Source: Trypanosoma brucei
Taxonomy: Eukaryota
NCBI GenBank assembly: GCA_000002445.1
Contig: CP000069.1
Coordinates: 160,001-224,000 of the forward strand
Length of the DNA stretch: 64,000 bases
Direction of reading: 5' to 3'
A program made the translations under genes and the position numbers. The notes beneath the pieces are model-generated. The model was given only the letters and a program-made list of their open reading frames with translations. It had not been told where the DNA came from and did no database searches. Of the stretch, positions 22,149-51,600 are shown in pieces. The stretch's first letter is position 1. Each line of letters opens with the position of its first letter.

Positions 22149-22410
22149 TGTTAGTATTACTTGCTTGTCAGTCTATGGGCCGCGCGTGAAAGAAAACAGG
22201 TTAGGAAGAGTAAGCACAAAACAAGGTGAACAAGGAAGATGATCACATCGCAATTGACCTGCATTGTAGAAACACCGCCCCGTTAAAATACGCGGAGAGT
22301 GATGAAGATATTGATCTGCTACACGAAATAGAACGCTACAAGGGAAAACATAGTTGGAAGGTGAGAGTGGCAGTAAATACTAAGAGCATGGAGAAAAAAC
22401 ACATAAAAAA

Positions 22411-25400
22411 ATATAATGTAAAGGGAAGCATGTAGAGGTTATGCCAAATGTTCAGTTGAGGTTACACACTGCAGCGACGTAGACGCTCCCTCCCGCCACA
22501 ACTCGTCGTAGCTCCTCATCGCACAGTTAAAACGTCAAGGGTTCAGTCTTGAATTACCACAAAATACGGATAAATGAGGTTTGTCCCTATAAAGGAGCGG
22601 CATTTCTGCACTCCCCTCGAGTGTCCAAACAGTGTTGTAAATAACAGAAGGATATTATAGGCTCAGCAATATTAACAGAGTGAACGTGTTACAAAACTCC
22701 CTCACAATACTATAATTAGTATAAGCTGCAATAACTGTGACTGTGAAGGAACTTTGTTATACTGCGAGGCAACGCGGGTTTCAGCACATAACTAAGCTCA
22801 TGCATCGACATCACACTCTGGAGGGAATGGAGGCAATCACATACCTTAAATCCTTACGGCAACACAAATGAGTGAAGGGAAAGAAAGCATGCAACTGGTG
22901 AAACAACATGTAACATCAGCAATGCAGAGGGTGATAAGGGTTGTATATCCGAAGAGAGAGATACAACAGCCCACATAACACCCAACACATACAAACACAC
23001 ATGCAACATAACACTCATTATGAAAAAATATTTAAAGACATCGCTAGCATTAAGTGGATTCAAAAAGAAAAACGTGACGCAGACACACACGGAAACACAG
23101 TTTTGTACCCGAAAGGCTGCGGGATTGGGCGTGAGAGGTGGAATGTTTAAAAAAAATAGTCATGCACTCGCACGCTTAAGGACAGACGTGTTGAAAAAGA
23201 AATGTTTCACCTTATTTTTCTTAAAGCCTCAAATGGCAAGGACAAAAATAAAAAAGAGAGCCCTTAGGGAAAGTACATAGCTAATCCCATTTTGTGATTA
23301 CTCACAGAACAAAAACGTTTTGGTTAAATTAGAAGAAATGTTGAGCCGTCCTGTCTTCCATAAGGGTCGGATTTGGAACAGTAAGAAACCAACCGGCGCT
23401 GACACGGCAAAACACATGCATGTGTTAATTCAGTGTCTTGAAAGACAACGCATGTGTAATCTAACAGAGGGCATGTTCCCTCTTAAGATTAGTATGTGCT
23501 TTAATGCAGAGGCAGCAGCCACCAAAAATAGAATGTAAAAAATGTAATAATAAATAGATGGCAAAAGATAAAAATAGATACAAAAGACAAACCCTACCGA
23601 GACTACGTTAAAATTCACTAACAACTACTACAATCGGTATGCTAATTAACTTTTCCGCCGAGTAAAACTAAGAGATTTGTACGCTTTATGACGTGCAACA
23701 GTACCACTAATGTAACGACGGAAGCGAACACCCAAAGTGGCCTTCTCTGAAATGTGAACCAACGAATGGAACAATTATGATTGAGCCCTCTTCAGTACTC
23801 ACAGAAGCTTCACTGCTTCCACTTTGAGCGCTACGGTCAGCGACACGCCCAACCTTAACTGCAATGCGACGCACCACTTCCTCACAGTAGGCGTCATCCC
23901 ACTCGAATGCAGCTTCACGGGGAAGAGGCACACGCCAACGCTCACAAAGCGACGCCAGAAGATTCCCCCGTTGCGCTGCTTTAAAAGTTCGGAAAACAGA
24001 CTGCAGTGAGTTCAATATCGATTGTGCTGATTCACTCAGCTCCGCACGTGAAGAACTGTGGTCGCTGGTGGAGGTTGTCGTGCCATCCTCGTCTTCATCA
24101 AAGAATTCGCGATCCAGCCGTAATGCAGCAAAGTTGCGGCCAGGCACGGCATTCAACTGGTACATTTCCACATGATCATTCACGCCACGAAGTGCAACAT
24201 CACCAAGTGCAGTGACATCAATTTGCTCACGCTCCTCAGCTGACAGTGACATGTAAACCTCATGCGTTATCAGCACCTGACCACCATTTGCTACACTCTC
24301 TGTCCTTGCTGCCATGTTTGGAGTGCGCCCATAGTAGTCATATCCCTTCGTCACTTCATCGTGTCGGATGTCGCACAACCCGGTGTGGATTCCAACACGT
24401 ACACGCAGGCCATTCCACAAACGACTGTACACTTTAGGGTCCAACCGCGCAGTTGGCGGTGTGTACTTCTCGTCCTCCTCCGCACGCTGCTGCTCAAATT
24501 CCCAGTAGGACTCATCAATCGCATTTGTTCCCCAGTCATGCTGCAAGAAACACAGCTGTAGTTCCTGTGCGAGTTGGACGGCAGCGAAAGGACTCTTACT
24601 CGCTATCATGAACGAATCCCCTACAGTCTTGACTTCGTAGCACTTATACCTCCCAATCAGTGAACGAATCAAATAGTGATGTGTTGCAACGGCAACAGGC
24701 ATCAGATCAGGGTGTGCAGCCCACAACGCAGTGCTGCTCTCAATGTCAGTAGATATTAGTGTCACGGGGTCAGTTGGTTCCTTGGGTGCAAGATTGTTAT
24801 CACGAGCATTCCGGTGTGTTGCTAATATAACAACCACAAGAACCGTAACAAGCGGCACCAACATTACGACGAAGCCAACTGCAATAGCGGCAATTTGCTC
24901 AGTTATCTGTTGGATCCATCTCGGTTCATCATAGGTCACTGACAGTGTGGCAGACGACAGCGCAGAGGACACAAAAGGGTTTAGAACATGTGACATCGAC
25001 CATACAAAAATATGCATCGCACCACAGTTGACAACAGTGCTTCGCCTCAAGTCAAGTTTCGTTCGTACACTTGTCTCCAAACGACCCATACATTGCAGGA
25101 CACTTCCCATTGCGTAAGCGATGGCAGACCCACGTAGTGACAATGGCTTCCACTTCGACTCATTCTGCACGATCTTGCGGAACTCACGTACTGTTTTGGA
25201 CTCCGTGATCTTATCCCTCCGATGTGACAGATTCGTTGCGAATAGCAAGGGGTTAGAAAATGGCTCTTCATGGAAGGCATTCACGAGTTCGCCGTGGATT
25301 GGTGCATCATCGAAGAACAGGACGAAGACGTGCGCATTACGGTGCTTGTTAGGGTGAAAGAGGATTATGGAGATATTATATGGGATAAGACCTACAACCA

Positions 25401-27295
25401 ATACCTCACATGCAGTTGACAGCTTGTCTCTCAAAATAGGACCTTCACCACTCGCAACAAAGAAGCTTAGTGATGTGTTAAAGTTGTCAAGTGTTTTTGC
25501 AACATATTCCTAATTCCTCTCGTATCACCACCACGACACACAATGAAATGCATCCTTCCTGCACCATTTTGTATAATATGCTCAACTATCATAAATAACT
25601 GCTGCTCATTTGTTGGTAACAGGTGGATCACATTCCTTCTGGGGTTACTCGGTTGTGATGTGAGTATTATAGGATCGATGAATGCCATACCCTTCGTCCG
25701 TAGTAACGAATTATCCACGACACCAAGCACAGCAGTTACAACTCGTTTCTCAACATCATTATACAGAGTTGCAGAAGCTTCGTAAAATTTCGAGGATAGT
25801 CAGTGTAAAAAGAAACTATCAGAGACCCAGTTGACCTTTGCCAACAACATGAGGGACACCATCGTATACCATCTATGCAGTACGCAGTGCCTTTGGGTCA
25901 TCGGTTATATTAAACATGACCCCACTCAATGGGCCCTACAACTGTGGCAGGTCTCGATAACAGCGAGATGAACCAAGGGTTAATATAGCTTCCTTCATAG
26001 GGTGCAGATGGAGATCCTTTTCCACCTTCTTCACGCACATCACACTCCCACCTTGGTTACGTAAACACGATACACCCCGCTCTCCCGCCTTATTACGGCA
26101 CTCACCACCAAAGTCACCAACCACAATATTATCAATTGGATAACGACGTTTATTGTACAGTGATTTCATAAATACACCCCTGCTAGTTAGCTATTCGTGA
26201 CAACTCAGTGCCTGTTTCAATACCTCCCCAGCAACCCATCTGTTCAATGTCAGCTCAGCTTCAGCGTCTTGCTCGGTGAAGTTATTTTCGTTAATATCCC
26301 ACCTTGTGCGCTTATAGTTATTACCATTAACCTTTAACAACATAGTCATATCATCTCTGAAACGCCTGACAGCTTTGTATGTGTCACCCTTCGTAATTAG
26401 GTCAGCCCCAGTTATTATTATCTTAGCAGCCACAAACTCGTCTCTACCCAATTTATATGCCCACTTGTTCTTGATGGCGTGTTGGAGTGCAGAGGGTGTA
26501 TGAATAAATATTCGCCTCTTGTCCTGTGGTCATATAATCATTTCATGGGGAATCTCTTCATATCAGGGATTGGAGAACCAAATACAATCATTCCCTGAGG
26601 TCCAGTATCGGCAACCTTATTACACTCCGCACTGAAGCTCCTGTTATCCGATTCCTTATCAAGTTGACTCTTCAATGCAAAAAAAAAAAAATAACAACTA
26701 AACAACTTGCGATTCATCCGTGTTGCCAACTACGCAGCAAGCTTATACTCATCATCACCATAAGAAACATCTTTCAAATACATGAAATCCAGTCGGTGTG
26801 ACCGTAACTGAGTGATAGCATAACGGAAAAGAGCAAGCATCTCAACGGCGAGTGGTGCTTCCAGGAGGTATAAATTGGGATTCCAACTGTGTACCCTACT
26901 GAATCCTGTGAAAGGTAAGAAATCAACTACGCATTCTTTTCATTGAAATATTTGGTTAAGTTGAGAGTATTTTTGTCACCCACAGATTCCAGTATAATAG
27001 CAAACTCATCACCGTAATTGGTTGTACAGATGGCGTATCCAAAGTCATCCAGAGACGGAACATATGCAACTGCCACACTGACACACGGAAGCGACTTCCC
27101 GTTGGTAATAGATGCGTTGAAACCTGCAATAATAGGATCACATACCTTTGCTGAGATCTTGTCACTGTATAACATGTTGCATACCCTTACCCATAATAAT
27201 CCATTTGCAAGCTATACTTCAGCCAGCAGCTGTAGTAACATAGAAAAACACTACGTAAGTGACTACGCCATCTCTAGCATGTAATTCACGCATGG
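22411..27295. repeat. right arm of the large inverted repeat. It contains an inverted partial R spacer at 22411-23150.
   Basis: Reverse complement of 7225-12105. For example 22423-22450 'ggaagcatgtagaggttatgccaaatg' is the reverse complement of 12078-12105. The lectin tandem array abuts it at about 22350-22411. Confidence 0.85.
23707..27176 (-). pseudogene. GRESAG4/ESAG4 adenylate cyclase pseudogene, inverted duplicate of 7340-10809
   Basis: ORF 23707..25434 (575 aa) differs from 9082..10809 at only about 12 residues. The upstream fragment ORFs (25467..25730, 25936..26169, 26191..26451, 26927..27175) mirror the left-arm fragments exactly. Confidence 0.8.
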
Positions 27296-30662: not shown

Positions 30663-32090
30663 ATGCAGGTTGATTGGGGTGCAGTTCATAAATTCATTAC
30701 TGACGAATGGGACAAGACCCTCGTCCCCACCATTTCTGCATACATCGAGGTTCCGAACCAAAGCCCCCACTACGACCAGGAATGGGCAACCAATGGGTTA
30801 ATGCAAAAGGCTATGGATATCATTATTGAGTGGGTCAAAAAACAGCCCATCAAGGGTATGAAATACGAGCTTTTCGAGGAGAAAGGATTAACGCCTTTCC
30901 TCATTGTGGAGATTGAAGGAACTGAGCCATGTGCCAACACACTAATGATGTACGGCCATATGGACAAACAACCCCCTCTTCTTCCGTGGGAGGAGGGACT
31001 CCACCCATATAAGCCAGTGTATCGGGATGGCAGATTATATGGTCGTGGAGGAGCTGACGATGGTTATGCCGTGTTTTCAGCTCTGACCGCAATGGCGGCT
31101 GTGCAAAAGCAAGGCATTCCACACGGGAAAGTCGTTGTTATCATTGAGGCCAGTGAGGAATCTGGGAGTATGCACCTCCCTTTTTACCTCGAGAAATGCA
31201 GGGACCGCATCGGCAACGTCGATCTTCTTATTTGTTTGGACAGTGGGGCGATGAGCTACGATCAACTTTGGCTGACGACAGCTCTACGAGGAGTATGTGG
31301 TGGCATGCTTACAGTGGAAACAATGAAGGAAGGCATGCACAGTGGCCTATCCGGTGGCGTTGTTCCCGATTCCTTTCGTATTGCCCGTATGCTCCTCGAA
31401 CGTATTGAAGATACAAATACCGGTGAAGTAAAAATTATCGAAGCAAACTGTGACATCCCTCAGCATGTTGTGGAGAGTATGCAGTCAATAAGGGCAATTG
31501 CATACAAGGAGCAGTTTCCCCTTCTGTCCGGCGTGTCTACTGAAGTTGATGACACTGTGGAGCTAGCCCTGAGGAATTCTTGGAAACCGTGCTTGACAGT
31601 GGTGGGTGATAACCTCCCTGATGCGGCAACGGCTGGGAATGTCAATCGTGCCAAGACCGTGCTGCGGCTCTCCCTCCGTGTCCCCCCTATTGTGGACGCG
31701 ACGAAGGCCACACTAGCGATGAAAAGAATACTCGAGGCTGATTCCCCATATAACGCCAAAGTAACTTTCACTCCGGATGATGCAGGTGACGGCTGTGCGA
31801 CACCACGGCTAAAGCCATGGCTTGTGGAGGCGCTCAATAAGGGTAGTGAGATGGCTTTTGGTAAGGGGTTCGCATCACAGGGCATGGGTGGGTCCATTCC
31901 TTTTATTGCAATGTTGCTGAAAAAATTTCCGGATGCGCAATTTGTGGTCACCGGCGTTTTGGGACCGAAGAGCAACGCACACGGGCCGAACGAGTTTCTA
32001 CATGTGCCGTTTGCGAAAGGAGTAACTACGTGTGTTGCCCGAATCGTTGCGGACCACTACCATGCAACGCCAAAGATACATAAGCAGTGA
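30663..32090 (+). CDS. M20-family metallopeptidase (CNDP/DUG1-like dipeptidase or carboxypeptidase)
   Basis: A 475-aa ORF. It carries the M20 signature block MMYGHMDKQPPLLPWEEGLHPYKPVYRDGRLYGRGGADDGY (~YGHLDVQP...ERDGKLYGRGSTDDKG) and the downstream EASEESGS metal-ligand region. Confidence 0.75.
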   Translation: MQVDWGAVHKFITDEWDKTLVPTISAYIEVPNQSPHYDQEWATNGLMQKAMDIIIEWVKKQPIKGMKYELFEEKGLTPFLIVEIEGTEPCANTLMMYGHMDKQPPLLPWEEGLHPYKPVYRDGRLYGRGGADDGYAVFSALTAMAAVQKQGIPHGKVVVIIEASEESGSMHLPFYLEKCRDRIGNVDLLICLDSGAMSYDQLWLTTALRGVCGGMLTVETMKEGMHSGLSGGVVPDSFRIARMLLERIEDTNTGEVKIIEANCDIPQHVVESMQSIRAIAYKEQFPLLSGVSTEVDDTVELALRNSWKPCLTVVGDNLPDAATAGNVNRAKTVLRLSLRVPPIVDATKATLAMKRILEADSPYNAKVTFTPDDAGDGCATPRLKPWLVEALNKGSEMAFGKGFASQGMGGSIPFIAMLLKKFPDAQFVVTGVLGPKSNAHGPNEFLHVPFAKGVTTCVARIVADHYHATPKIHKQ

Positions 32091-35684: not shown

Positions 35685-38261
35685 ATGACACAACCAGATA
35701 TATTCATGGGTGGGAATCCACTTTGTGTGAGATACAATGGCTATCCCATCCACGTGGTCCGTTCTACGGATGGCACCAGCTGGTTCAGTGCAGCGGATAT
35801 TGTAAGGGCTCTCAGCATGTACAGTACAGGGATGGGTGCAGGTGATTGCTGTAAAGATGATAACACACTTTCACCATCCGATGAGTCTGCGGATTTTGCG
35901 AAGCGCTTGTTATTTTCAGTTGACGAGGAGCACAAAAAGCCACTAAAAGATGTGGTCAAGGAGTGTGAGCGGGCATTGTATGGGAGTGCTGGGATGGAGG
36001 CTTTATACGTTGACCTCACCGGGATCCAGACGTTAACACGCGCTACAAGCATGCCGACAGAGGCTGACTATAACGACTTCATGCAACACGGTGAGGCGCT
36101 TAATAAAATCGTTGGGGCCTTGCAAAGAGGCATCCGTGACAGCTGTGCGCAAATGTCCGAAAAGCCTTGGAATGACGGATCAGGCGGCGTCGTAGAGGTC
36201 AATGCAGCTGACTTACAGTCGCTCCTGAAAACGGTGGAAGAAATGAACGGGTACATGTGCAGCATTTTACCCCGCGTTGCTAACAATGAGGCTACTATAA
36301 GAACTGTGAGTGAGCACATGCTCCAACTCCAAAATAAAGTGGATCATGAAATTGAGAAGATCAGAAGGGAATTCAGCCAACACGGGACTGCTTCACTGAC
36401 TGGACGTGATAAGGTAAGTGAAAATGCGGAAAGCGAGCCCCCATGTGGTACAGCGGAGTTGAATATATCAGAGAGTCCTACAGCGGCTTGTAAAACCGTC
36501 AGACTGCTTGACCAGTCGAAGAATGGGGCTTGGCAGCGCCAGGAGCATCCGGTGGATATTATAAGCAGTGAGGAAAGGCTGATGAACAGCTTCAACTTTG
36601 AAGCATGTGGTGCATCTGCTGAAGAGTTTGGAGAAGCTGAGCTCGAACTGATTGCCTATTTCAGGCGTGCACTAAGTCGTCTGGGGCAGCAGGGTAGAAC
36701 ATGTATTAAACTGTTTCCAGTGAAGGACTCTAACAAACACTCTTCCCATTCCGCTGAGCGCGCCACCTATGAGTTGAAAGTAAAGAGAATGTCACTGCAG
36801 TTGAGTGATTTTAAATTCATCAGCATGTGCCCATCCATAGCCAAGCTCCGTTTCAGCGAGTGTCGCGGTGTGTGCGACCTGGAGGTCCTGGCTGAGGCGA
36901 AATCACTCGACGCATTGAGCCTGGATATTGAAGGGGAGGTGAGGCACCTTCATTTTTTGAGCGGACTGCCTTCCCTTAAGACCCTTCAGCTACATTACCA
37001 ACAAATCTCTGATGACGAATTTCGCTGTTTGTGCCTGTTGGAGGGCCTGGAGGAGCTAACTCTGCGTGATGCTTGGAACTTAACGTGTTTGGCGCCGATT
37101 GCAAGCTTGCGGCGGTTACGGGTATTGGATTTGAGCCTCCCACTGGTGGCCCCCAGCGGCTGCGTGCAAGAGGAGTGTAGTTCTGATGGTGATCAAAGTG
37201 CGGATACAAAGTACCCCCATTTAACGGATGTAAGTCCACTTGCAGAGATAATAGCACTAGAAGACTTGAATCTCCAGGGACGAGGAGGTGTAGAGGCAGG
37301 TGTTGATGCACTTGGATCTTTACCGAAGCTCCGTGTGTTGAATCTGAGTGGAACGGGCATAACCGATTTGTGTTTTGGTGGTCTGAGTGAAAGCAAGACC
37401 TTGACGTCACTTGACATTTCTTTCTGTTGGAATTTGACCGACCTAAGCCAACTCGCTCAAGTCGCCACGCTGAAGGAACTAAAGCTTCGGTTGCACAAAG
37501 ATGGAGTACCCTGCGTGGACGGTCTCGATAGCCTTCCGTTACGCACGCTACACTTGGTTCTCCCCCAAAGAATTTGCCAGCATTCGGAGGAATCTTCTAC
37601 TTTGGAGAGTAGCTGTGAGGTTGCACCCACTGTTTCGCTAACAGATGTGTTCCCCCTCGAAGGGATTGAAACGCTTGAAGAGCTGAGTTTGCGGGGTCAG
37701 GGACATTTGAGTCTACAAATGGACGTCCTTTCCTCCTTGCCTCATCTGTGTGTGTTGGATTTAAGTTTCATAAGCATGACAGAACAGTGTCTTGATGTAC
37801 TTGCCACTATACCAGGCCTGGTGAAGCTCGGATTCACTGCTCGTGGGTGCACAGGGAACATGAGCTCTCTCTCTAAGATTACTTCGCTTGAAGAGCTGGA
37901 CGTCCGAAGTTGCTCTAGTGCCGGCGCAATTGTTGATGCAGCTGCCCTGCTGCCTAAGCTGCGTGTTTTCAGTCTGAGTGGTGCCACAATTACTCCAAGG
38001 AGCCTCCAAAGCCTCATCCAGTGCAATAACCTAGTGAAGCTGGATATTTCCTTCTGCAGGAATGTGGAGGGTGGTACGCCATTCCCATTGATGACTACAG
38101 TGGAAGAGTTGAACCTCAAGGGCTGCCAGAGCGTCCTCTGTCTCGGTGTTTTGGCCAACTTCCCTAGTCTGCGGAAACTAAACGTGAAAAACATGTACGT
38201 GAGTTCCGAAGTGTTAAAGGAGTTTCGTGGGCGTAATGTTGTAGTTCGTTACAGATGCTGA
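35685..38261 (+). CDS. leucine-rich-repeat protein with ESAG8-type (cysteine-containing, RI-like) LRRs and an N-terminal KilA-N/Bro-N-like domain; no RING finger
   Basis: An 858-aa ORF. Residues about 10-45 (NPLCVRYNGYPIHVVRSTDGTSWFSAADIVRALSMYS) match the Bro-N/KilA-N core pattern F.F.G..IRVV..DGE.WFVA.DVA.AL. The middle holds a coiled-coil region. The C-terminal half has at least 15 LRRs of the ESAG8 type (LxxLxLSxCxxLTDLSxLAxxxxLxxLxL). Confidence 0.75.
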   Translation: MTQPDIFMGGNPLCVRYNGYPIHVVRSTDGTSWFSAADIVRALSMYSTGMGAGDCCKDDNTLSPSDESADFAKRLLFSVDEEHKKPLKDVVKECERALYGSAGMEALYVDLTGIQTLTRATSMPTEADYNDFMQHGEALNKIVGALQRGIRDSCAQMSEKPWNDGSGGVVEVNAADLQSLLKTVEEMNGYMCSILPRVANNEATIRTVSEHMLQLQNKVDHEIEKIRREFSQHGTASLTGRDKVSENAESEPPCGTAELNISESPTAACKTVRLLDQSKNGAWQRQEHPVDIISSEERLMNSFNFEACGASAEEFGEAELELIAYFRRALSRLGQQGRTCIKLFPVKDSNKHSSHSAERATYELKVKRMSLQLSDFKFISMCPSIAKLRFSECRGVCDLEVLAEAKSLDALSLDIEGEVRHLHFLSGLPSLKTLQLHYQQISDDEFRCLCLLEGLEELTLRDAWNLTCLAPIASLRRLRVLDLSLPLVAPSGCVQEECSSDGDQSADTKYPHLTDVSPLAEIIALEDLNLQGRGGVEAGVDALGSLPKLRVLNLSGTGITDLCFGGLSESKTLTSLDISFCWNLTDLSQLAQVATLKELKLRLHKDGVPCVDGLDSLPLRTLHLVLPQRICQHSEESSTLESSCEVAPTVSLTDVFPLEGIETLEELSLRGQGHLSLQMDVLSSLPHLCVLDLSFISMTEQCLDVLATIPGLVKLGFTARGCTGNMSSLSKITSLEELDVRSCSSAGAIVDAAALLPKLRVFSLSGATITPRSLQSLIQCNNLVKLDISFCRNVEGGTPFPLMTTVEELNLKGCQSVLCLGVLANFPSLRKLNVKNMYVSSEVLKEFRGRNVVVRYRC

Positions 38262-40288
38262 CGAGGGTCCGAAAGTTTTGTATATTCTGAGCGGGTTCTG
38301 GGTGCTGTGTATCTTGTGCCATAACCACAGTTTTCTTAAGGGCACTTCCCACTCGTATATTGCGCCTCTGGTGTGTGGAGACGCCAGTGTGGCGCCGGTT
38401 GTGCTGATATTTTTGGTGCTTCCCCCTTGGGTTTTATGTGTACCGTCGGTAGCATCGATGTGTATGTAAAGGCTGCCCAACACGCTAGGGACACTCACAC
38501 GTGTCAGGCGGTAGGGGTTATATTTGCTGCTCTTCAAAATAACTTAAGCAAATTGGCACCATGAACAGACGGGTAAAGAGAAATATTGCACGCACCGTCC
38601 TTTTTTTGTTTTTGGTTTGACTTGTCTTATCATATTTTACCTTACTTGCCTCCCTTTTTGATCGCTAATGGCGGGTCGCAGACAAAACATTTATTAATTA
38701 TGAATATTTCGGTGTGGTTGTGCAAAATTTAAGCAAGCAGTTATGCAACAGATATTGGGGCCTCTGTGGACCCGTTTTCTTTTTTTTTTTTTCAACCCTA
38801 CCATTGGGTTCCTCCCCCTTTTCGCCTCTCTGATACGCCCACTTCATTCCTCGTTTGATGTACTGGACCACCTTCCCCACGATCAACTGCCTCCGCTTGC
38901 AGGACACCATCGCTCTGAAATATCTCATCTTCGCCACCTTTTGTTCCGTTTAAGGGCAGTATCGGGTCAACCGCTGTTGAAATATAGGTACTGGTGCTTT
39001 GCGTGGTTGGTGGGGAGGGAGGGGGTTTCTATCGATAACATTTGGCAGGCAGAAAACTGGTTTGCATTCCTCCTTGCGAGTGAACTAAAGGCAAGCGGCT
39101 GGTACAGCCTAGAGAATCATGATAGGGTAGTTTCTATACATCCACAACCGCTGTCCCCTAGAGGATCTCCTCTTCTCCCTCTAGAGTTGAGGTATCCATG
39201 TCCCTGAATCGGGTTTGATAACTACGATATTGTGATGTCTCAAAGGAAGGGTCTGAAAGGGCTGCCCGTCATTCACTTGGTTAATGACACGCACGAAATA
39301 CTCATGATTGTTATCAACCCTATCAAATAAATGTTACCCCCAGAAAGCTACATTACCCGTAGTGTGTCTAATGACCACAGCTGTGACGGGGATGCTGGGG
39401 ATTCACAATGTCGTGTGGAGTCCGTAGGTGAATTTTCCGCCCAAAAGTCTCGAGGTGGTGGGACAGGGGTGGAGGGACAAAAAGAGGGAGAGAGAGTTTG
39501 TGTGGCCGTCCTCCTCCATTAACGTGAAATAATATGGGACAGGGAGAGCTTGTCTGTTCTCTTTACAACCAGTTTACTGTGGGAGTCGTGCTCTAAGCTC
39601 GTTGAAAGCTGAGAACGGGCAGCTGTTGGATGCCCACGGGCCTGCAGCCACCAAATTGTGCAACCACGCAAACTCACAGGGATGTTATGACACGACTTGC
39701 CTCGCCTGGGTAGTTGAGTGCTGCACCACACGTAATGGGTACGTTGAAGCAGCTTCCAAGGCGCAGATGCCTGAGTTGCATAGTTGCCATGCGTCTGTCA
39801 CCACAGCAGTCACGCCGACGACTATGCCACCAATTCCACAACAAGGCTCCAAAGCAGCTCCATAATTAGTAATGAAATGTCAGTAGCAAAGAAAACTACG
39901 ACACACATGAAATACATATACGTGTTTGTGTGACACCATTAGCTACCAGCGTGTCGGTTGTCCCTTTCTATCATTTGCTCGCAATTTACAGTGACATCAT
40001 TAACGAGTCGCCTCTCGCTACCTTGACGTGCCTTCATTGCTTTTTAAGCATTGTTTTGGTTTTGTCGGGAACTTGTTATAGTATCCAACTGTCTGGAAGT
40101 GTAATCTTACTGATTTCTATTTTCCCTCTTTTGATATTCTTCCTTAGGACATAAGATTTCACACACGAAAAGTGTCACACATTACCGAAAATATGAGTTG
40201 GCAGGAAGGTGGTGGAAGAGGATGTGTGTACCCTCATGGAAACTGCAGGCGGAACCTTACCGCAAGGAGCCCTGCAAGGCGTTACAGC

Positions 40289-43200
40289 ATGTACAAGCAC
40301 TCACCTGTCATTACTGCTGTATCACTGCTACACTTGTTTCCTTTGCTACTCATGTGGATGCCACCTGTGTGCGCAGAAAACGGTAATGTGACGGTAAATG
40401 TGCTATCCATGATGTACAGCCTCGGTTTCACCACTCCTGAAGTTAACGCCATTAATGCCGGCTTTGACGCATCACTGAGTGCCCACAGCTGGAAGACGGG
40501 CTCCGGTGCGACAATATCTGTCATCCGTCCCTCATCACCCAATGCGACAATCGAGGACATATTTCAGCTGGGGGTGAAACAAAGTGAAGGGAAGTTATTA
40601 GTTGTATTCGGGCCCCTGGGTACTAATCACGTCTTAAAGAACAGTGATGAACTGAAGAAACATGATCTTGTTGCCATCGCTCCCGTTGCGTACTCCAGTG
40701 AGGTCCGTGGTTGGAACCCTCACCTTTATTTCATAAGTGTCGAACCCAATGCTGAACTCCTCGCCCTCATTCGTTATGCTGTTGTTTACCTCCGTGTCCC
40801 ACGAATAAGTATGATGTACGAAAAGGACAACACCGCCAGTATGGGAGCGTATGAGTTTACTGTGCGAGTATTGGCGATGTTGGGTCGCCATTTATGTGGA
40901 GTGTTCGTTGTGAAGGAGAGTGAGAATCAAAATATCTCTGAGGATGATTTGAACACCAGGTGGAGACAATTTGTTGCTACGCGCCCACAGGCTATATTGT
41001 TGTTTTCATCCCTGGGTAATACAGCAAAGTGGTTCATCAAGAAGGTAGCACAGGACAACCGCACTGCCAATGCGTATCTTCTTTCTACTTCACTACAGCA
41101 ACATTTTTTGATCAAGATGTGGCGTGAGGCATTGGTGTTAGCTAATCGTACATTCACTCCTGAGCAGCTGATCACAACTGGAACAGTGCCGCTCGCTAAT
41201 GATAATCAGTCCTCACTGATTCAGCACTTCCAGCGTGACATGAACAACTACCTGGATACAAACAGTGACTGGAAGGGCTTTGCGAAACCCGATCACTACC
41301 TTGAGGACGACGGTTTAGGTGAGATGATGGTGTATGGGTGGCTTGCGGGAGAAGTTCTCTTCGAAGCTCTGAATAACGCTCCACAGCTGACGAACCGTAA
41401 ATCATTCAGGGAATCTCTGTACAAGCAGCGTCGCTACGTGATTGATGACCTTGTGGTTGGTGACTTTGGTGGTGAGTGCAATGAGGCCGTTGCATTACAG
41501 GGTGCCATGTGTGAATGCAATCAAGGTGGCAGTATGGTATATATGAAGAGTATAATGGATGGCTTCCGACTCAGACCTTTGTGGGAAGGGTTCCTAACGT
41601 GGGGTGTATCAGAGTGCTCAAGTGCCAATGTACAAGTAAGCGCGCCATTGAGTGGCCTCTTTGTGATTCTGGTGGATAACGCAATTGTTTTCCGAGCGAC
41701 TATGAGGTGGTTCCTTGGCGCTCAGGCCCTGGATGAGGCATATGATGTTGACAATAGAATATTTTTCCATCCCCTAACAGTATCTTCAGAGAATGTGACG
41801 CAATCCCTTGAGCAAGTACGGGACAACAGGGATGTATCTGCAGTATTTGGTATCGTTCCAGCGGCGATGTTGGACACACCGAATATGATGTTCATCAGTC
41901 CTATGGTGGTGGGCATCCGCCAGAACGGGTTTAGGAGAAACGTAATACACTTACTGCCTGTGCTTGCGCAGCAACTTTATGTGCTTGCTGTGTATCTCTC
42001 CAACACTTCTTCCAGAGGAGTAAATGCATTCATACGCGGTGAGCAAGCAGGGGAGATCAGTAGCCTGCTGTACAAGTCATTGGTTACGTTTGGTGTGCCG
42101 CTTGATTCCAGCAAGACACTTGGTGATGGTGACCCGGTAGCGTCATATCTCTCGGGTAATGGAGATGTGTTTACTATTGGACTCACTCTCACTGACGTTG
42201 CTGCGGTTGCGCGGCACCTTCAGGCACACCTCAGGGCACGTGTGTTTGTTGGGTTCAATGACCTTGCAATGTACTACGATGAGTTTGTGGCTGCGTTTAA
42301 TGCGAGTAAAGAGTCTATTGCTAGCTCAGAGCGGCTCCTATTCGCGACGAGTTTTCCACACTGGGCGGAGAAGGACACGAAATCAGATGTGGTTGCAAGT
42401 TTCCATCGCATTGTGAATGAATCGCATTGGGATCCACTAACGTTTATCGGTTTTGTTGCAGCTCGGCTGCTTCAAGTGATTCTCCCGAATATGAAGAAAG
42501 TGAATGCAGAGCTGCTGGCAGACCGCATTTACACGGAGTCCAACATCAAAGTGGATGACATGCGATTTGGACCCTTCAGTGATGTGGAATGTGTTTCTGG
42601 TACGAGTGTTTCGGCAAATGAGTGTGCCTCAAACTTTGGAGCCACAAACATTTCTGTATGGTCGATGGCGCGTGTGCTGAATTCAAGCTTGCCCAGAACA
42701 CAGGTTGGGATGACACCGTCTATGGACTATGTTATTCCGCAAGAGGGTCAGCTCACACGGTCACAGATAGCCGGCATAGGTATTGGGTGCGTAGTCGGCT
42801 TCATATTGTTTATTGCCCTTGGTGTGCTCCTACGCATCTCCCTGCGGAATGCTCGTGATAACAATCTTGCACCCAAGGAACCAACTGACCCCGTGACACT
42901 AATATTTACTGACATTGAGAGCAGCACTGCGTTGTGGGCTGCACACCCTGAGCTGATGCCCGATGCCGTCGCCGCGCATCATCGTATGGTCCGTTCACTG
43001 ATTGGGAGGTATGACTGCTACGAAGTCAAAACTGTAGGGGATTCGTTCATGATAGCGAGTAAGAGTCCTTTCGCTGCCGTCCAACTCGCACAGGAACTAC
43101 AGCTGTGTTTCTTGCAACATGACTGGGGAACAAATGCAGTTGATAATTCTTACCGGCACTTCGAGGAGCAATGCACGGAGGGAGAATGTGAGTACACGCC

Positions 43201-43930
43201 GCCAACTGCGCGGTTGGATCCTAAAGTGTACAGTCGTTTGTGGAATGGCCTGCGTGTACGTGTTGGAATCCACACCGGGTTGTGCGACATCCGACACGAT
43301 GAAGTGACAAAGGGATATGACTACTATGGGCGGACTCCAAACATGGCAGCAAGGACGGAGAGTGTAGCAAATGGTGGTCAGGTGCTGATGACGCATGCGG
43401 CGTACATGTCACTGTCAGCTGAGGATCGTAAGCAAATTGATGTCACTGCACTTGGTGATGTTGCACTTCGCGGTGTGAGTGATCCGGTGGAAATGTACCA
43501 GTTGAATGCCGTGCCTGGCCGCAACTTTGCTGCATTACGGCTGGACCGCGAATACTTCTTTGATGAGGGCGAGGATGGCACGACAACCTCCACAAGCGAC
43601 CACAGTTCTTCACGTGCGGAGCTGAGTGAATCAGCTCAGATAATTGCAACTGCACTACAGTCGCTGTTAAGCACGTTCAAGACAGCACAGCGTGAGAAGT
43701 TGTTGCTGCCGTATTGTGAGCGTTGGCGTGTGCCTCTTCCCCGTAAAGCCGCATTCGAGTGGGATGACGCCTACTGTGAGGAAGTGGTGCGTCGCATTGC
43801 AGTTAAGGTTGGGCGTGTCGCTGACCATTGCGCTCATAGTGGAAGTGAGTCGTCAAGTACGCAAGGCAGTTCATCAATTATTATCGTCCCTCTTCACGAC
43901 CTGTACTGCCGTGAAAATTATTCTATTTAA
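40289..43930 (+). CDS. GRESAG4: receptor-type adenylate cyclase (GRESAG4/ESAG4 family), copy 2. The track ORF opens at 40172; the likely start is the ATG at 40289.
   Basis: A 1252-aa ORF about 90% identical to copy 1 through the extracellular, TM and catalytic domains. Its C-terminal tail (AELSESAQ...CERWRVPLPRKAAFEWDDAYCEEVVRRIAVKVGRVAD) matches the pseudogene-type tail, not the copy-1 tail. Confidence 0.9.
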   Translation: MYKHSPVITAVSLLHLFPLLLMWMPPVCAENGNVTVNVLSMMYSLGFTTPEVNAINAGFDASLSAHSWKTGSGATISVIRPSSPNATIEDIFQLGVKQSEGKLLVVFGPLGTNHVLKNSDELKKHDLVAIAPVAYSSEVRGWNPHLYFISVEPNAELLALIRYAVVYLRVPRISMMYEKDNTASMGAYEFTVRVLAMLGRHLCGVFVVKESENQNISEDDLNTRWRQFVATRPQAILLFSSLGNTAKWFIKKVAQDNRTANAYLLSTSLQQHFLIKMWREALVLANRTFTPEQLITTGTVPLANDNQSSLIQHFQRDMNNYLDTNSDWKGFAKPDHYLEDDGLGEMMVYGWLAGEVLFEALNNAPQLTNRKSFRESLYKQRRYVIDDLVVGDFGGECNEAVALQGAMCECNQGGSMVYMKSIMDGFRLRPLWEGFLTWGVSECSSANVQVSAPLSGLFVILVDNAIVFRATMRWFLGAQALDEAYDVDNRIFFHPLTVSSENVTQSLEQVRDNRDVSAVFGIVPAAMLDTPNMMFISPMVVGIRQNGFRRNVIHLLPVLAQQLYVLAVYLSNTSSRGVNAFIRGEQAGEISSLLYKSLVTFGVPLDSSKTLGDGDPVASYLSGNGDVFTIGLTLTDVAAVARHLQAHLRARVFVGFNDLAMYYDEFVAAFNASKESIASSERLLFATSFPHWAEKDTKSDVVASFHRIVNESHWDPLTFIGFVAARLLQVILPNMKKVNAELLADRIYTESNIKVDDMRFGPFSDVECVSGTSVSANECASNFGATNISVWSMARVLNSSLPRTQVGMTPSMDYVIPQEGQLTRSQIAGIGIGCVVGFILFIALGVLLRISLRNARDNNLAPKEPTDPVTLIFTDIESSTALWAAHPELMPDAVAAHHRMVRSLIGRYDCYEVKTVGDSFMIASKSPFAAVQLAQELQLCFLQHDWGTNAVDNSYRHFEEQCTEGECEYTPPTARLDPKVYSRLWNGLRVRVGIHTGLCDIRHDEVTKGYDYYGRTPNMAARTESVANGGQVLMTHAAYMSLSAEDRKQIDVTALGDVALRGVSDPVEMYQLNAVPGRNFAALRLDREYFFDEGEDGTTTSTSDHSSSRAELSESAQIIATALQSLLSTFKTAQREKLLLPYCERWRVPLPRKAAFEWDDAYCEEVVRRIAVKVGRVADHCAHSGSESSSTQGSSSIIIVPLHDLYCRENYSI

Positions 43931-46149: not shown

Positions 46150-47458
<1,309 letters not shown>

Positions 47459-50400
47459 AAAAGACACCGTTTCTTCCAAAGACTGCGCGGGAGTTGCTCC
47501 TAAATTGCATTTCCTTCTCTCCTCGTAACATTAAGTGGTCGTGTTGTTGTTTTTTCTTCTTTCCTCTCGCGTGTGGAGGCGAGGCTGAAGACGAACTGCG
47601 GCGTCAGACTGCCAAGTGTGAGAAAGAGCGTGAAGTGGTGTGGGGATGATGCCAACGAAGATCTTTTTAATTTTTGGATGTGGGCTTACGTAGTTCGCTG
47701 GTAAATATACTTAAGATCTTTCTTTTTTTTTTTTGTTGTTGTATGTCTTTTTGATTTTGTTGTATTGATTGAATTATTCCCCTTGAGCTTTCTTGTCTTG
47801 TACGATACGTTGGCGAGAAGCTGGTTAAACGAAAACTTTGAAGGAAAAAAATGTGGGATGTGTTTGTGTCTGCTTGTGTGTGTAAACGTAATGGAGGCTT
47901 CCCCCCCCATTAGTGGCATGCATGCATTTCCGATGCCGACATGCGGTTTTCGGTGAGGGAACAATGCGCCTCACCGTATCATGTACCGTGAACTACAAGC
48001 CACAAAAATATGTGCTTGAATAGTAAGTCCTCCCAACTTCATTTCATGACCAGGAAATTAATCATGTCAAGCCATTGAGCAACTTTTTCTCTTCAGTGGT
48101 ATGCCTTTGTTCGTTTTCAAAAAAAAAAAGGAAGAATAAAGAGAAAGGGAGTGGGAAAACTTTTTTTTTTTTGCTACATGTGCCTTTTCTAGTGTGTGCG
48201 AGCGCCCGCTGCGAGGAATTGAGCTTTCTCCTTTCCTTCCTTTTCCTCCTTTCCCCTCTCTATGGATGAATCCAATTTAGGGTCCGCCGCTTTCTTGCTC
48301 GCTCCCGCCGTACGCAAAGGAATTATGCCGTTTACCTCAATCAGTTTTTTAGGGCGGCTTGTGGAAGTGCCTTCATCAGTACCGCTTACACCTTTGTTTC
48401 CCGGGTTAAACACACCTCCCGCGAAAAATAAATGAATAATAAATTCAGTTTATATTATATGTAATTATCCCAAGTGCGGCGGGTGGCTCTGCTGCCTTGA
48501 TGGAGAGCGGGCGGAGGTCCTTGTGAGGGTTTACAGCCGCCCTTTCAGTTTTTCTGTACTAACGTTCCTGCGGTGGAAATCATTCGCATTATCAGAGTAT
48601 TGTACGGTGTCTTAAGTTGATGTTTGCAGTAGCGGACCGGTGGACAAGACGAGCGAAGGTTCACCGCGCAAGGGCGAGAAAAAGCTTTCCCGCACGCTGA
48701 TTACAGCAGAAAACCTCACTTCTCCTCGGTCTACTTTAAAATCAATGTTGTCGACGCTCGGTTATTGTGACAGCGGGATTGCTTTTACAAGCAACACGTT
48801 GTCTTCTTTTTTTGTTTATTTCCTGTTGGGGTCCGTTGGAGTGGCGTTAAAGGCCTTGCTTTGGCGACAGGGCCGCCCAACAGGGTTTGGCTGGGGGCGT
48901 GACATCGCACTGGCGTCCATCACGTCCAGCGGGTTACTGGCGTGGTGAAGTCGCAGCTTTCTTTCAAGTGAGAATCCCCTGCTTGGCGGGAAAAAAATGG
49001 CTCTGCTTCTGATGGGAAAGGAGGAATTTTGTATTCTTTGACTTACTCCTGCGGTGATGTTGTGTTTGTGGTCCGCTTTTCAAGGGTGAGACCTCCGGGT
49101 TCTTAAACGGCACCATCCTCCCCGTTGGTCAGTTCTTTCGCGAAAAGGGTTTGTGTCCGCCGTGTTGGTTGCTGGATCGCCAACCCACAGAAGTTGCCGT
49201 TCCTCCACAGCATAGTTGTGTGAACAATGTTCCCCTTTGAGCAGATTAGCGTCGTCTCCATGCCTTGTTTCCTACTGCACCCGCTGCATTTGCATGCCTC
49301 AGTTGCGCAGTTAAGCATATCTTCATTCCTGTTTTCCGTGAGAGGCGAAGGGTTGCCGTGTCCTCAAGAGAGGTGTCCTTGAGGGTTGCAGTCTTTTACC
49401 GTGCTGGTTAGCTCCACGGCCTCCACCGAAAAGGGGAGAGCCCGAACGCTGGTTTCCCCATTTCCCCGTCTTTTCGATCAAGAACCCCTTGCTTTTAGTA
49501 GGTATTAGATCGGTAACTGGGAGATTGTAGCGGGTGTTCGTGTGTGGGGAGCGTTGCGCACTCGCACGGTTTTAAAATGGTTGTTATGTCAAAGCTGTTA
49601 TTTCCCTTTTGTTCACTATGCCATTTGTTAACCATCTTCCAGTTGTTTGTTATACTCCTATCGATGGATTGTCACTCCTTCAAATATGGTGCTGTAGTTT
49701 GAATACTCTCTTGGTGTGCCGCAAAGTGTGGGATACATAACGTGCCACAAGCTAGCGCTTCCAAGGGGGTTTAAACTCGGGAACTGTGAGTGTGAGTCTC
49801 GAACCAATGCGATGGTTCTGGTCTGCGCTGAAGGACATTTTATAGGGCCCCCGGATCCTCCCTGTGCCCAACTCGGTGATGCTGAGGTCGATGAATTCCT
49901 TCGTTCGCTACGAAACAAAGCATTGGGTTTGGTGGCATTTAGTGCGGTGCCTTCGATGGTGTTGTGCTTTCCTCTCCTGGAATGTGCTGGCTCGGGTTAA
50001 GATTTTAGCGGGTGCGGGGGAATGCGGCCCAACTTTTTTGCGCGAAATCTCTTGCATTGACTTGCCGCGTAACCCATGGTGGTTTCGTCAGCCTGGTAGG
50101 AGCTGAGACAGCAGCATAATGGGTGGATTCTCGTATCCATTCGTGTGGGCATGCTCCCCACTTGCATGGGTTCCATTTTTGAAACATTGGTGCACTGGGG
50201 GTGTGTTCCGTAGGAAGGGCCGCGCGGTTGGGGCTTTAAAAGCACGACTGTAACATCTATATAGTGAAGTGGCGGGTGTACGAGTTGGGAGTGCAACATT
50301 TGAGTGCGGTGTTTGTCCTGCATGCCCCCGACTGCTGGTTTTCAGACTTCTTCGATGCCCGGTGTTTCGTAGCAAAACATACCGCTGCCGGCCTAAATGC

Positions 50401-50649
50401 CGCTGATTCACCACAAAGTGCTTTTCAGTGCCCCCAAACTGGATTGCCAAACTTCTGACAAGTGTATTGTTCCGAGTATGGTGAGCGGACCCCTTCTCTA
50501 TTATCAATTCTCAAAAACTCTTCGGGAGTCAGGGCCCACGGAACCGAGGGGGCGGATGAGGGAGAGGGGGAAACAACAATTCCGCACCGCGAACAGGCAC
50601 CGCTCCCCTGGACCTCTTCCTCAGATGTGAGGTGCAGTCAGCCTTTGTT

Positions 50650-50975
50650 GTCATTGGGGTTAAGCGGAAAGGTGTGTGTCAGTAGGTTGTGAGGTGAAAG
50701 CGTTTTCAGATGCATAGTGAGCTTAATGTCCTTTTCACAGTATATCGTGTCTGATAGGTATCTCTTATTAGTATAGTCGAATACTAGTCAATAGTGCATT
50801 TTGTGCAAAATGTCCATTTTGTGGCAGTGATGGGGTTGCTTTATGCTATTCCGTGTCTTGATGGTCATACATTGAAAATAGGGGTTATCGGGTGAGTACT
50901 GAGTTTAACATGTTCTCGTGATCGCTGCACGCGCCTTCGAGTTTTTTTTCCTTTTCCCCATTTTTTTCAACTTGA
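50650..50975 (+). promoter_or_regulatory. candidate procyclin (RNA pol I) promoter and splice-acceptor region upstream of EP
   Basis: This is inference only. Procyclin units are known to be driven by a pol I promoter within a few hundred bp upstream of the first EP gene. A polypyrimidine tract ('gagttttttttccttttccccatttttttcaacttgaag') lies at 50936-50975. The exact promoter elements were not identified. Confidence 0.25.
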
Positions 50976-51008
50976 AGACTTCAATTACACCAAAAAGTAA
51001 AATTCACA

Positions 51009-51392
51009 ATGGCACCTCGTTCCCTTTATCTGCTCGCTATTCTTCTGTTCAGCGCGAACCTCTTCTCTGGCGTGGGATTTGCCGCAGCCGCTGAAGGACC
51101 AGAAGACAAGGGTCTTACTAAGGGAGGCAAAGGCGGGAAGGGAACCAAGGTCAGCGACGACGATACCAATGGCACTGACCCTGACCCCGACCCCGAACCT
51201 GAACCTGAACCTGAACCTGAACCTGAACCTGAACCCGAACCCGAACCTGAACCTGAACCGGAACCTGAACCTGAACCCGAACCTGAACCGGAACCCGAAC
51301 CCGAACCTGAACCTGAACCTGGTGCTGCAACGCTGAAGTCTGTTGCGCTTCCGTTCGCAATTGCGGCCGTTGGTCTCGTTGCCGCATTCTAA
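51009..51392 (+). CDS. EP: EP procyclin (procyclic-form surface coat protein), copy 1. It is 127 aa with DPDPDP, 21 Glu-Pro repeats and an N-glycosylation site NGT.
   Basis: It reads [19 protein letters not shown]... signal, [27 protein letters not shown](EP)21[26 protein letters not shown] signal. This is the textbook EP procyclin. Having the NGT site with about 20 EP repeats resembles the EP3/EP1 classes. Confidence 0.9.
51176..51320 (+). repeat. (GAACCT/GAACCC)n hexamer repeat encoding the EP dipeptide tract
   Basis: Seen directly in the sequence. The unit-2 copy at about 58595-58727 is 12 bp shorter. Confidence 0.9.
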
Positions 51393-51600
51393 GCTCATGT
51401 AAAGAGAAATCTTTTTGGAGGGTCAAAACTTTTTAACAAGGGTGACCCCAACTGTTTATTTAACCCTTCCTTTGGCGCGATGCGCTCGCTTCATGGTGTT
51501 CCTTTGTGACAGGACACTGACACGCATAATATTTTTTTCAACCCATTTTTTTGAGTTCTATTTTTTGTTTTATGTCTTGGAACCGTCGGCGGTAGCACGC
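51393..51600 (+). promoter_or_regulatory. EP 3' UTR with U-rich elements (candidate stage-regulatory 3' UTR)
   Basis: U-rich stretches ('cataatatttttttcaacccatttttttgagttctattttttgttttatg') lie immediately downstream of the stop. Procyclin 3' UTRs are known to carry U-rich and stem-loop regulatory elements. The specific elements were not verified. Confidence 0.3.

What the first reader, a model, noticed from the sequence alone, without database searches (positions are those of the whole stretch)
35685..38261. KilA-N/Bro-N-like domain fused to ESAG8-type leucine-rich repeats
The C-terminal half is a clear ESAG8-class LRR array. Canonical ESAG8 has an N-terminal RING finger. This protein instead starts with a 35-aa block (NPLCVRYNGYPIHVVRSTDGTSWFSAADIVRAL) that fits the conserved core of KilA-N/Bro-N DNA-binding domains. 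Those domains occur in phage, large DNA viruses and fungal APSES factors. A coiled-coil stretch follows it. A KilA-N-LRR architecture would suggest a nuclear nucleic-acid-binding regulator in the ESAG8 lineage, with the RING swapped for a different N-terminal module.
Basis: partly seen in the sequence, partly recalled or inferred. Interest (0 to 1): 0.6.

Follow-up and report, generated by a model that had tools for sequence, protein, structure and literature searches.

The report
Phage-type Bro-N domain on trypanosome LRR protein
A single-copy African-trypanosome gene (Tb927.6.410) encodes a leucine-rich-repeat protein whose N-terminus is most likely a very divergent copy of the Bro-N domain otherwise typical of phage antirepressors and large DNA viruses, a combination not annotated or described before, though the match is below curated thresholds and its function is untested.

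Summary
The ORF is real: 35685-38261 (+), 858 aa. It is identical to T. b. brucei TREU927 XP_845164.1 / Q581E9 / Tb927.6.410. The C-terminal ~500 aa are a bona fide LRR array.

The N-terminal block is conserved in the only detectable relative, a syntenic full-length T. congolense orthologue (37% identity). Pfam Bro-N is the only non-LRR family hit:
- T. brucei aa 1-150: E=0.087.
- T. congolense aa 1-151: E=1e-4, 23.3 bits (cutoff 25.6), covering profile positions 2-93 of 96.
- T. congolense full length: E=0.0032.

Profile-profile comparison with 15 taxonomically diverse phage Bro-N domains gives 92.8% probability and E=3.9e-7. Against the narrower 20-sequence reference the score is 48.6, while 200 shuffled controls reach at most 18.9. 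Almost all the signal lies in aa 15-47 (β-β-β-α). The second half is colinear but weak.

AF2 models were poor (pLDDT 40-45). About 31 of the top 50 viral-structure matches were nonetheless BRO proteins.

KilA-N gets no hit. The ESAG8 "RING swap" and a nuclear role are unsupported: there is no RING, no NLS-like cluster and no telomeric location, and published APEX2 data place the protein near cytoplasmic Alba4.

The parts
35685..38261 (+). Complete ORF of Tb927.6.410 (858 aa plus stop). Residues 1-7 are not conserved among T. brucei-group isolates, so Met8 (35706) may be the real start.
35718..35825 (+). Bro-N-like core, aa 12-47. It contains three predicted beta strands (aa 13-17, 20-26, 32-34) and helix alpha1 (aa 36-47). 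Nearly all of the statistical signal comes from here. Tb/Tc identity is 39%.
   Evidence: Pfam Bro-N aligns aa 22-60 to profile 2-40. hhalign of aa 1-50 alone gives E=1.9e-9 and 1.5e-8. AF2 secondary structure. Conservation.
35826..35993 (+). Variable acidic or low-complexity stretch plus two predicted helices (aa 48-103), between the two Bro-N halves. About 30 residues (roughly aa 72-103) are extra relative to phage Bro-N. Tb/Tc identity is 20% over aa 48-82.
   Evidence: Deleting aa 50-71 raises the T. brucei Bro-N hit to E=7e-4.
35994..36125 (+). Putative second half of the Bro-N-like domain, aa 104-147. LYVDLTGIQTLTRATSMPTEADYNDFM...KIVGALQR aligns with IINESGLYSLILSSRKPEAKEFKRWVT.EVLPAIRK. 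The match is colinear but weak on its own.
   Evidence: The Pfam alignment of the T. congolense orthologue extends to profile 93/96 and gains 4-7 bits. hhalign of the C-half alone gives P=0.0035-0.05. MAFFT with the diverse set gives the same register. The C-halves alone get no Pfam hit.
36126..36749 (+). Helical and partly heptad region (about aa 148-235), followed by a poorly conserved, probably disordered linker (aa 236-355; 17% Tb/Tc identity). No family hit.
36750..38258 (+). LRR solenoid, aa 356-858: about 19 irregular repeats of 17-33 aa with two longer insertions (aa ~485-515 and ~625-650). They are organised as super-repeats of three LRRs, ~71-74 aa each (396-469, 519-590, 591-663, 664-734, 735-805, 806-858). 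This is the best conserved part (46% Tb/Tc identity).

Best explanation
Tb927.6.410 is a single-copy protein detected only in African (Salivarian) trypanosomes. It has three parts:
1. A highly divergent Bro-N-like domain (aa ~12-147). This is the domain of baculovirus BRO proteins and phage antirepressors. Here it is interrupted by a lineage-specific helical/acidic insert.
2. A helical, poorly conserved linker (aa ~148-355).
3. A ~500-aa LRR solenoid built from triple-LRR super-repeats.

This is the usual Bro-N architecture: an N-terminal binding head, a linker, and an interchangeable C-terminal module. Here the C-terminal module is an LRR protein-interaction scaffold.

Shown: the ORF, the LRRs, the conservation and synteny with T. 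congolense, and a statistically significant but sub-threshold Bro-N match concentrated in the beta-beta-beta-alpha core. From the literature: the protein is expressed in bloodstream forms and lies close to cytoplasmic Alba4.

Inferred: the protein acts in the cytoplasm as an adaptor. The Bro-N-like head would bind nucleic acid (given the Alba4 neighbourhood, RNA or an mRNP component is more likely than chromosomal DNA) or a specific protein. The LRR solenoid would recruit partners, and the helical region may mediate oligomerisation.
For: Identity and expression:
- ORF and identity.
- APEX2 Alba4 proximity: log2 1.83 (p=1.1e-4) unstressed and 1.98 (p=1.6e-4) starved. DeepLoc predicts cytoplasm (PMC10998879).

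Distribution:
- Among 1.84 billion representatives, only one relative of aa 1-350 was found: the T. congolense IL3000 orthologue.
- That orthologue aligns end to end (E=2e-163) and is syntenic, with a GRESAG4 cyclase downstream in both species.

Bro-N match:
- Pfam Bro-N is the only non-LRR family. T. brucei 1-150: E=0.087. T. congolense 1-151: E=1e-4, 23.3 bits, profile 2-93/96. T. congolense full length: E=0.0032.
- Nearly all weak PHROG hits are anti-repressor families aligned to the same stretch.
- hhalign against 20 streptococcal-phage Bro-N domains scores 48.6 (E=5.5e-8). 200 column shuffles average 11.8 +/- 2.3 with a maximum of 18.9, and the reversed alignment scores 12.9.
- hhalign against 15 diverse Bro-N domains, chosen without reference to the query, gives 92.8% probability and E=3.9e-7 in the same register.
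- MAFFT with the diverse set reproduces that register.

Structure:
- AF2 models built without any Bro-N rows start beta-beta-beta-alpha.
- About 31 of the top 50 BFVD Foldseek matches are BRO/Bro-N/ALI proteins.

LRRs.
Against: - The match never reaches Pfam's gathering score (25.6 bits).
- The T. brucei sequence alone is not significant (E=0.087).
- The score rests on ~32 residues.
- The C-terminal half has no independent Pfam hit and only P=0.0035-0.05 by hhalign.
- With the narrow reference, MAFFT proposed a different C-half register.
- The first phage reference family was picked through a weak tblastn hit to the query. I corrected for that selection bias only afterwards.
- Nucleic-acid binding and the adaptor role are pure inference. 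APEX2 proximity does not show binding. The same table's curated GO component column lists 'cilium', and TrypTag has no localisation.
Confidence: 0.62

Rival explanations
1. The resemblance is a chance or convergent ~32-residue beta-beta-beta-alpha motif. On this view the N-terminal 150 residues are a lineage-specific domain, or a partly disordered region, unrelated to Bro-N.
For: The signal is confined to aa 15-47. It is below the Pfam gathering score. T. brucei alone gives E=0.087, and UBA_RAD5A scores slightly better than Bro-N on T. brucei aa 1-50. The C-halves alone get no Bro-N hit. AF2 cannot fold the region confidently. A tblastn search of phages gave only chance-level E-values.
Against: Pfam gives E=1e-4 (0.0032 in the unbiased full-length scan) for the orthologue, with alignment over 92 of 96 profile positions. 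The real profile-profile score is about 16 SD above the shuffles. The result is reproduced with an independent diverse reference. The C-half is always placed colinearly and adds 4-7 bits. PHROG and BFVD hit lists are dominated by antirepressor/BRO proteins.
Confidence: 0.2
2. The domain belongs to a different branch of the phage/viral N-terminal DNA-binding modules (KilA-N/APSES, ORF6N, AntA, pRha or P22_AR_N) that shares only the N-terminal strand-helix unit with Bro-N. That would explain why the second half matches poorly.
For: Only the first half matches strongly. Bro-N and KilA-N occur in the same kinds of proteins with interchangeable C-terminal modules (PMC8096241).
Confidence: 0.08
3. 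This is the first reader's model: an ESAG8-lineage nuclear regulator in which the RING finger was replaced by a KilA-N/Bro-N DNA-binding module, acting on chromatin or transcription.
For: UniProt labels the protein 'LRRP', and ESAG8 is thought to derive from LRRP genes (PMC3605285). Bro-N domains are generally regarded as DNA-binding (PMC8096241).
Against: The protein has no RING and no NLS-like basic cluster. It is chromosome-internal, between an M20 peptidase gene and GRESAG4/HpHbR. ESAG8's closest relatives are other LRRPs that retain RING and NLS. This gene is in a different orthogroup (OG5_180294) from, for example, LRRP Tb927.1.4180 (OG5_135162). No ESAG8 or LRRP hit at E<=1e-3. Predicted cytoplasmic and Alba4-proximal.
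Confidence: 0.07

Closest known systems
Bro-N domain proteins (Pfam PF02498): baculovirus BRO proteins, phage antirepressors (Ant), and Bro-N proteins of entomopoxviruses, ascoviruses and mimiviruses
   Same: The N-terminal signature is shared (..vR.v..dGe.WF.A.Di..aL..), with weaker colinear similarity to the INESGLY...F..WV half. The overall layout is also shared: an N-terminal head, then a helical linker, then a variable C-terminal module.
   Different: - The host is a kinetoplastid, not a virus or bacterium.
- The C-terminal module is an LRR solenoid rather than KilAC/ANT, Bro-C or T5orf172.
- There is a ~30-residue helical insert plus an acidic stretch inside the domain.
- Several signature residues are replaced: Arg23 to His in T. 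brucei, and the Tyr of GLY to Gln in both species.
- The score is below Pfam's cutoff.
Trypanosome LRRP family and ESAG8
   Same: A long array of irregular, often Cys-containing LRRs. Same 'LRRP' label. Located next to a GRESAG4 adenylate-cyclase gene.
   Different: No RING finger, no NLS and no telomeric expression-site location. A separate orthogroup. Direct sequence relatedness to ESAG8 could not be tested, because no ESAG8 sequence was obtainable with these tools.
KilA-N / fungal APSES DNA-binding domains (PF04383)
   Same: This domain is also of viral origin and was captured by a eukaryotic lineage as an N-terminal binding module (my own knowledge of Iyer, Koonin and Aravind 2002, which is not held in the library).
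   Different: No profile match at E<=10. The motif content is that of Bro-N, not KilA-N.

Membership tests
Bro-N (PF02498) | Score at or above Pfam's gathering threshold (25.6 bits) | tested here: not met
   T. brucei aa 1-150: 13.9 bits. T. brucei with the insert deleted: 20.6 bits. T. congolense aa 1-151: 23.3 bits. T. congolense full length: 18.5 bits.
Bro-N (PF02498) | Statistically significant profile match to the N-terminal strand-strand-strand-helix signature | tested here: met
   Pfam gives E=1e-4 and 0.0032 for the orthologue. hhalign gives E=5.5e-8 and 3.9e-7. 200 shuffles reach a maximum of 18.9 against the real score of 48.6.
Bro-N (PF02498) | Second half of the domain (INESGLY..Li..S..peA..F..WV...vlP.iR) | tested here: inconclusive
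   The placement is colinear and the Pfam alignment reaches profile 93/96. Alone it gives only P=0.0035-0.05 and no Pfam hit.
Bro-N (PF02498) | Three-dimensional fold | tested here: inconclusive
Bro-N (PF02498) | Nucleic-acid (or repressor) binding by the domain | not testable with these tools
   Needs EMSA, CLIP or pull-down experiments.
KilA-N / APSES (PF04383) | Profile match to KilA-N | tested here: not met
   No PF04383 hit at E<=10 in any scan of either orthologue.
ESAG8 / RING-LRRP | Leucine-rich repeat array | tested here: met
   LRR_4 1.6e-15, LRR_8 1.4e-11 and others. About 19 repeats.
ESAG8 / RING-LRRP | N-terminal RING zinc finger | tested here: not met
   No zinc-finger family hit in Pfam. 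The Cys/His residues in aa 1-360 are scattered, with no C3HC4-like cluster.
ESAG8 / RING-LRRP | Nuclear localisation signal | tested here: not met
   A simple scan found no basic cluster. DeepLoc predicts 'Cytoplasm' in the PMC10998879 table. This is a crude test.
ESAG8 / RING-LRRP | Closest sequence relatives are ESAG8 or RING-LRRPs | tested here: inconclusive
   The full-length search returned only the protein's own cluster and two non-trypanosome LRR proteins at E<=1e-3, but only 8000 candidates were scored. No ESAG8 sequence was available for direct comparison.
ESAG8 / RING-LRRP | Location in a telomeric VSG expression site | tested here: not met
   The gene lies between an M20 peptidase gene and GRESAG4/HpHbR, in a chromosome-6 internal array.

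The most novel reading that the evidence does not exclude
A Bro-N domain was captured from a virus or phage by the common ancestor of T. brucei and T. congolense. Candidate sources are, for example, a large DNA virus or a bacterial-symbiont prophage of the tsetse vector. The domain was then fused to an LRR scaffold and domesticated as the nucleic-acid-binding head of a cytoplasmic mRNP-granule (Alba3/4) adaptor. That would give African trypanosomes a virus-derived post-transcriptional regulator with no counterpart in other kinetoplastids.
Probability: 0.15. Interest if true: 0.7.

Novelty: new variant of a known kind. Interest (0 to 1): 0.45.

Why it matters
Trypanosomes have very few recognisable sequence-specific nucleic-acid-binding domains, and they control genes mostly after transcription. 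A virus/phage-type Bro-N head on an LRR scaffold has three notable features:
- It is a domain architecture I found neither annotated nor described. The precomputed Pfam annotations on record list only LRRs, and no paper links Bro-N to trypanosomes.
- It is a candidate case of viral domain capture specific to the Salivarian lineage.
- It gives a concrete, testable handle on an uncharacterised protein that recurs in the Alba4 granule proximity proteome.

If the homology is wrong, this is simply one more lineage-specific LRR protein.

Tried and rejected
- **Word-index homologue searches.** Searches with aa 1-360 and with the two-orthologue profile returned nothing, not even the query's own cluster. 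This is a limitation of the tool for short queries, not a biological result. One call failed on a parameter limit.
- **PDB sequence searches.** The N-terminus and its profile gave nothing, or only spurious arsenic-methyltransferase hits.
- **NCBIfam.** Only a spurious kinase hit.
- **tblastn of the N-terminus against phages.** Chance-level hits, mostly tape-measure proteins. Two antirepressor hits served only as a lead.
- **Pattern scans.** Scanning viral contigs and bacterial/archaeal genomes with the trypanosome profile found no relatives, so no donor lineage could be identified.
- **AF2.** Two or four trypanosome rows gave pLDDT 40 and 45.
- **Alternative register.** MAFFT's alternative register for the C-terminal half (aa 74-98) was rejected. 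hhalign gives it no support, and MAFFT with a diverse reference switches to the hhalign/Pfam register.
- **Iyer et al. 2002.** This paper on Bro-N and KilA-N is not held.
- **Accession searches.** Other accessions for this gene matched no paper.
- **Gene-id searches.** With word-start matching these mostly hit unrelated ids.
Full report
**What is there.** The window is a chromosome-internal region of an African trypanosome. It carries:
- GRESAG4-type receptor adenylate cyclases (2327-6154 and 40172-43930);
- IGP lectin genes;
- an M20 peptidase gene (30663-32090);
- the haptoglobin-haemoglobin receptor gene (46178-47458);
- ORFs with a VSG_B domain.

The flagged ORF runs from 35685 to 38261 on the + strand and encodes 858 aa. 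Its translation is identical to P0004, which is T. b. brucei TREU927 XP_845164.1 / UniProt Q581E9. It differs by two residues from the T. equiperdum cluster representative. A published supplementary table links Q581E9 to gene id Tb927.6.410, annotated 'hypothetical protein, conserved', orthogroup OG5_180294.

**The C-terminal half.** Residues ~356-858 are a significant LRR array: LRR_4 1.6e-15, LRR_8 1.4e-11, and internalin- and LGR-type PDB hits. By eye and regex I count about 19 irregular repeats of 17-33 residues, with two longer insertions. The repeats are organised as super-repeats of three LRRs, ~71-74 residues each, with pairwise z-scores up to 19. This is the best conserved part of the protein (46% identity to the orthologue).

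**Relatives.** An exhaustive HMMER search of 1.84 billion representative proteins with aa 1-350 found one relative only. It is an 854-aa protein from T. congolense IL3000 (GCA_000227395.2). It aligns end to end with the query (37% identity, E=2e-163) and is followed by a GRESAG4 cyclase gene, as in the window. It is therefore a syntenic orthologue.

No paralogue and no non-Salivarian homologue of the N-terminal half was detectable. A very divergent one could have been missed at whole-library E-values.

Identity between the two species varies along the protein:

| Segment | Tb/Tc identity |
|---|---|
| aa 12-47 | 39% |
| aa 48-82 | 20% |
| aa 83-135 | 36% |
| aa 136-235 | 24% |
| aa 236-355 | 17% |
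| LRRs (aa 356-858) | 46% |

So is a second motif, LYGSA..(x)..YVD..GIQ.L.R.

**Is the N-terminus a Bro-N domain? Library scans.** Bro-N (PF02498) is the only non-LRR Pfam family that ever appears:

| Query | E-value | Bits | Alignment |
|---|---|---|---|
| T. brucei aa 1-150 | 0.087 | 13.9 | aa 22-60 to profile 2-40/96 |
| T. brucei, variable aa 50-71 removed | 7e-4 | 20.6 | aa 22-72 to profile 2-52/96 |
| T. congolense aa 1-151 | 1e-4 | 23.3 | aa 22-136 to profile 2-93/96 |
| T. congolense full length (untrimmed, unbiased) | 0.0032 | 18.5 | aa 22-136 to profile 2-93/96 |

None of these reaches the gathering score of 25.6 bits. Nearly all weak PHROG hits for both orthologues are 'anti-repressor' or 'anti-repressor Ant' families, and they align to the same stretch. 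KilA-N (PF04383) never appears at E<=10.

**Profile-profile tests.**
- *First reference.* I took a Streptococcus satellite-phage antirepressor (L002) and its IMG/VR relatives. hhalign of the two trypanosome sequences against 12 of these gave 93.6% probability and E=2.1e-7. Against 20 it gave 94.8%, E=5.5e-8, score 48.6.
- *Controls.* 200 column-shuffled alignments scored 11.8 +/- 2.3, with a maximum of 18.9. The reversed alignment scored 12.9.
- *Second reference.* The first family had been found through a weak tblastn hit to the query, which is a selection bias. I therefore assembled 15 Bro-N domains from phages of Firmicutes, Actinobacteria, Proteobacteria and Bacteroidetes. They were chosen by their distance from the phage protein, not by resemblance to the trypanosome. 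The result held: 92.8%, E=3.9e-7, same register, aa 15-133 to 13-98.

**Where the signal lies.** Dissecting the match shows that almost all of the score comes from aa 15-47. Residues 1-50 alone give E=1.9e-9 and 1.5e-8.

The second half (aa ~104-147) is weaker:
- It is always placed colinearly, onto the INESGLY...F..WV motif.
- It adds 4-7 bits to the Pfam score.
- On its own it reaches only P=0.0035-0.05 and gets no Pfam hit.

MAFFT with the narrow reference proposed a different register. hhalign does not support that register. MAFFT with the diverse reference reproduces the hhalign/Pfam register, leaving a ~30-residue insert at about aa 72-103.

**Structure.** AF2 with only trypanosome rows gave mean pLDDT 40 and 45. 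In the T. congolense-first model the first ~50 residues averaged 52-58. Both models begin beta-beta-beta-alpha.

**My reading of the domain.** I put the probability of a genuinely homologous but highly divergent Bro-N-like domain at roughly 0.75-0.8. Its N-terminal unit is well preserved. Its second half is degenerate and it carries an internal insert.

- Residues 1-360 contain no RING-type hit and no Cys/His cluster, and no basic NLS-like cluster was found anywhere in the protein.
- The gene is not in a telomeric expression site.
- Jackson et al. (PMC3605285) place ESAG8 closest to two other LRRPs that retain NLS and RING motifs, Tb927.1.3670 and Tb927.3.580.
- The full-length database search returned no ESAG8 or LRRP at E<=1e-3. 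This is weak evidence because of the candidate cap.
- I could not obtain an ESAG8 sequence for a direct test.

'ESAG8-type' is therefore at best a generic family label, and the 'RING swap' scenario is unsupported.

**Cellular context from the literature.** In an APEX2 proximity study (PMC10998879), Tb927.6.410 is one of six proteins labelled by Alba4::APEX2 both with and without glucose starvation. The log2 enrichments are 1.83 (p=1.1e-4) and 1.98 (p=1.6e-4). DeepLoc predicts cytoplasm, TrypTag has no localisation, and the curated GO component column of the same table lists 'cilium'. These data show that the protein is expressed in bloodstream forms. They point to a cytoplasmic, mRNP-proximal location rather than a nuclear one.

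**Mechanism (inferred).** Bro-N proteins typically combine an N-terminal binding head with a helical linker and an interchangeable C-terminal module. PMC8096241 summarises Bro-N and KilA-N as DNA-binding domains with shuffled partners. The phage sequences I collected show the head-plus-helical-linker part of that layout.

Tb927.6.410 fits the pattern, with an LRR solenoid as its C-terminal module. The most economical model is a cytoplasmic adaptor. Its Bro-N-like head would bind nucleic acid or a specific protein, and its LRRs would recruit partners near Alba-containing mRNPs. None of this is shown.

**Novelty.** The precomputed Pfam annotations for both orthologues list only LRR families. No paper in the library links Bro-N to trypanosomes, and none discusses this gene beyond the proteomics table. 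I rate this a new variant of a known kind: a Bro-N-like domain in a new lineage and a new architecture. Interest is moderate, because the homology is sub-threshold and the function is unknown.

Noticed in passing
window 7225-11599 and 22917-27295: A ~4.4-kb inverted repeat, 99-100% complementary. Each arm carries a truncated GRESAG4 adenylate-cyclase ORF (9082-10809 +, 23707-25434 -). The arms flank a minus-strand block that holds a C2H2 zinc-finger ORF (14486-15343) and the IGP genes. GC skew changes sign near 14 kb and 28 kb.
   Followed up: partly
window 19096-22377: A tandem repeat with a 1491-nt period, carrying two 316-aa IGP-family C-type lectin ORFs (19707-20657 and 21198-22148, minus strand).
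   Followed up: no
window 49379-58888 (and ORFs 53253-54626, 60660-62033): A ~7.4-kb tandem duplication (98-100% identical stretches) carrying two 457-aa ORFs. The first of them matches the VSG_B domain.
   Followed up: no
window 2327-6154 and 40172-43930: Two full-length GRESAG4 receptor adenylate-cyclase paralogues, with 94-98% identical stretches 37.8 kb apart. The second lies immediately downstream of the LRR gene, as in T. congolense.
   Followed up: partly
window 35685-35708 (aa 1-8): A Logan-assembly variant of the protein (P0007, 871 aa) has an unrelated N-terminal extension upstream of Met8 (MRGLERVVVSLFSKLFPPPL-MGGNPLCV...) and is otherwise nearly identical. Residues 1-7 are therefore not conserved in the T. 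brucei group, and Met8 may be the true start.
   Followed up: no
window 36870-38258 (aa 396-858): The LRR array is built from ~71-74-aa super-repeats of three distinct LRR types (LEEL.L.G... / LP.LRVL.LSGT.IT... / L..LDISFC.N...). The third unit (aa 591-663) is degenerate.
   Followed up: yes
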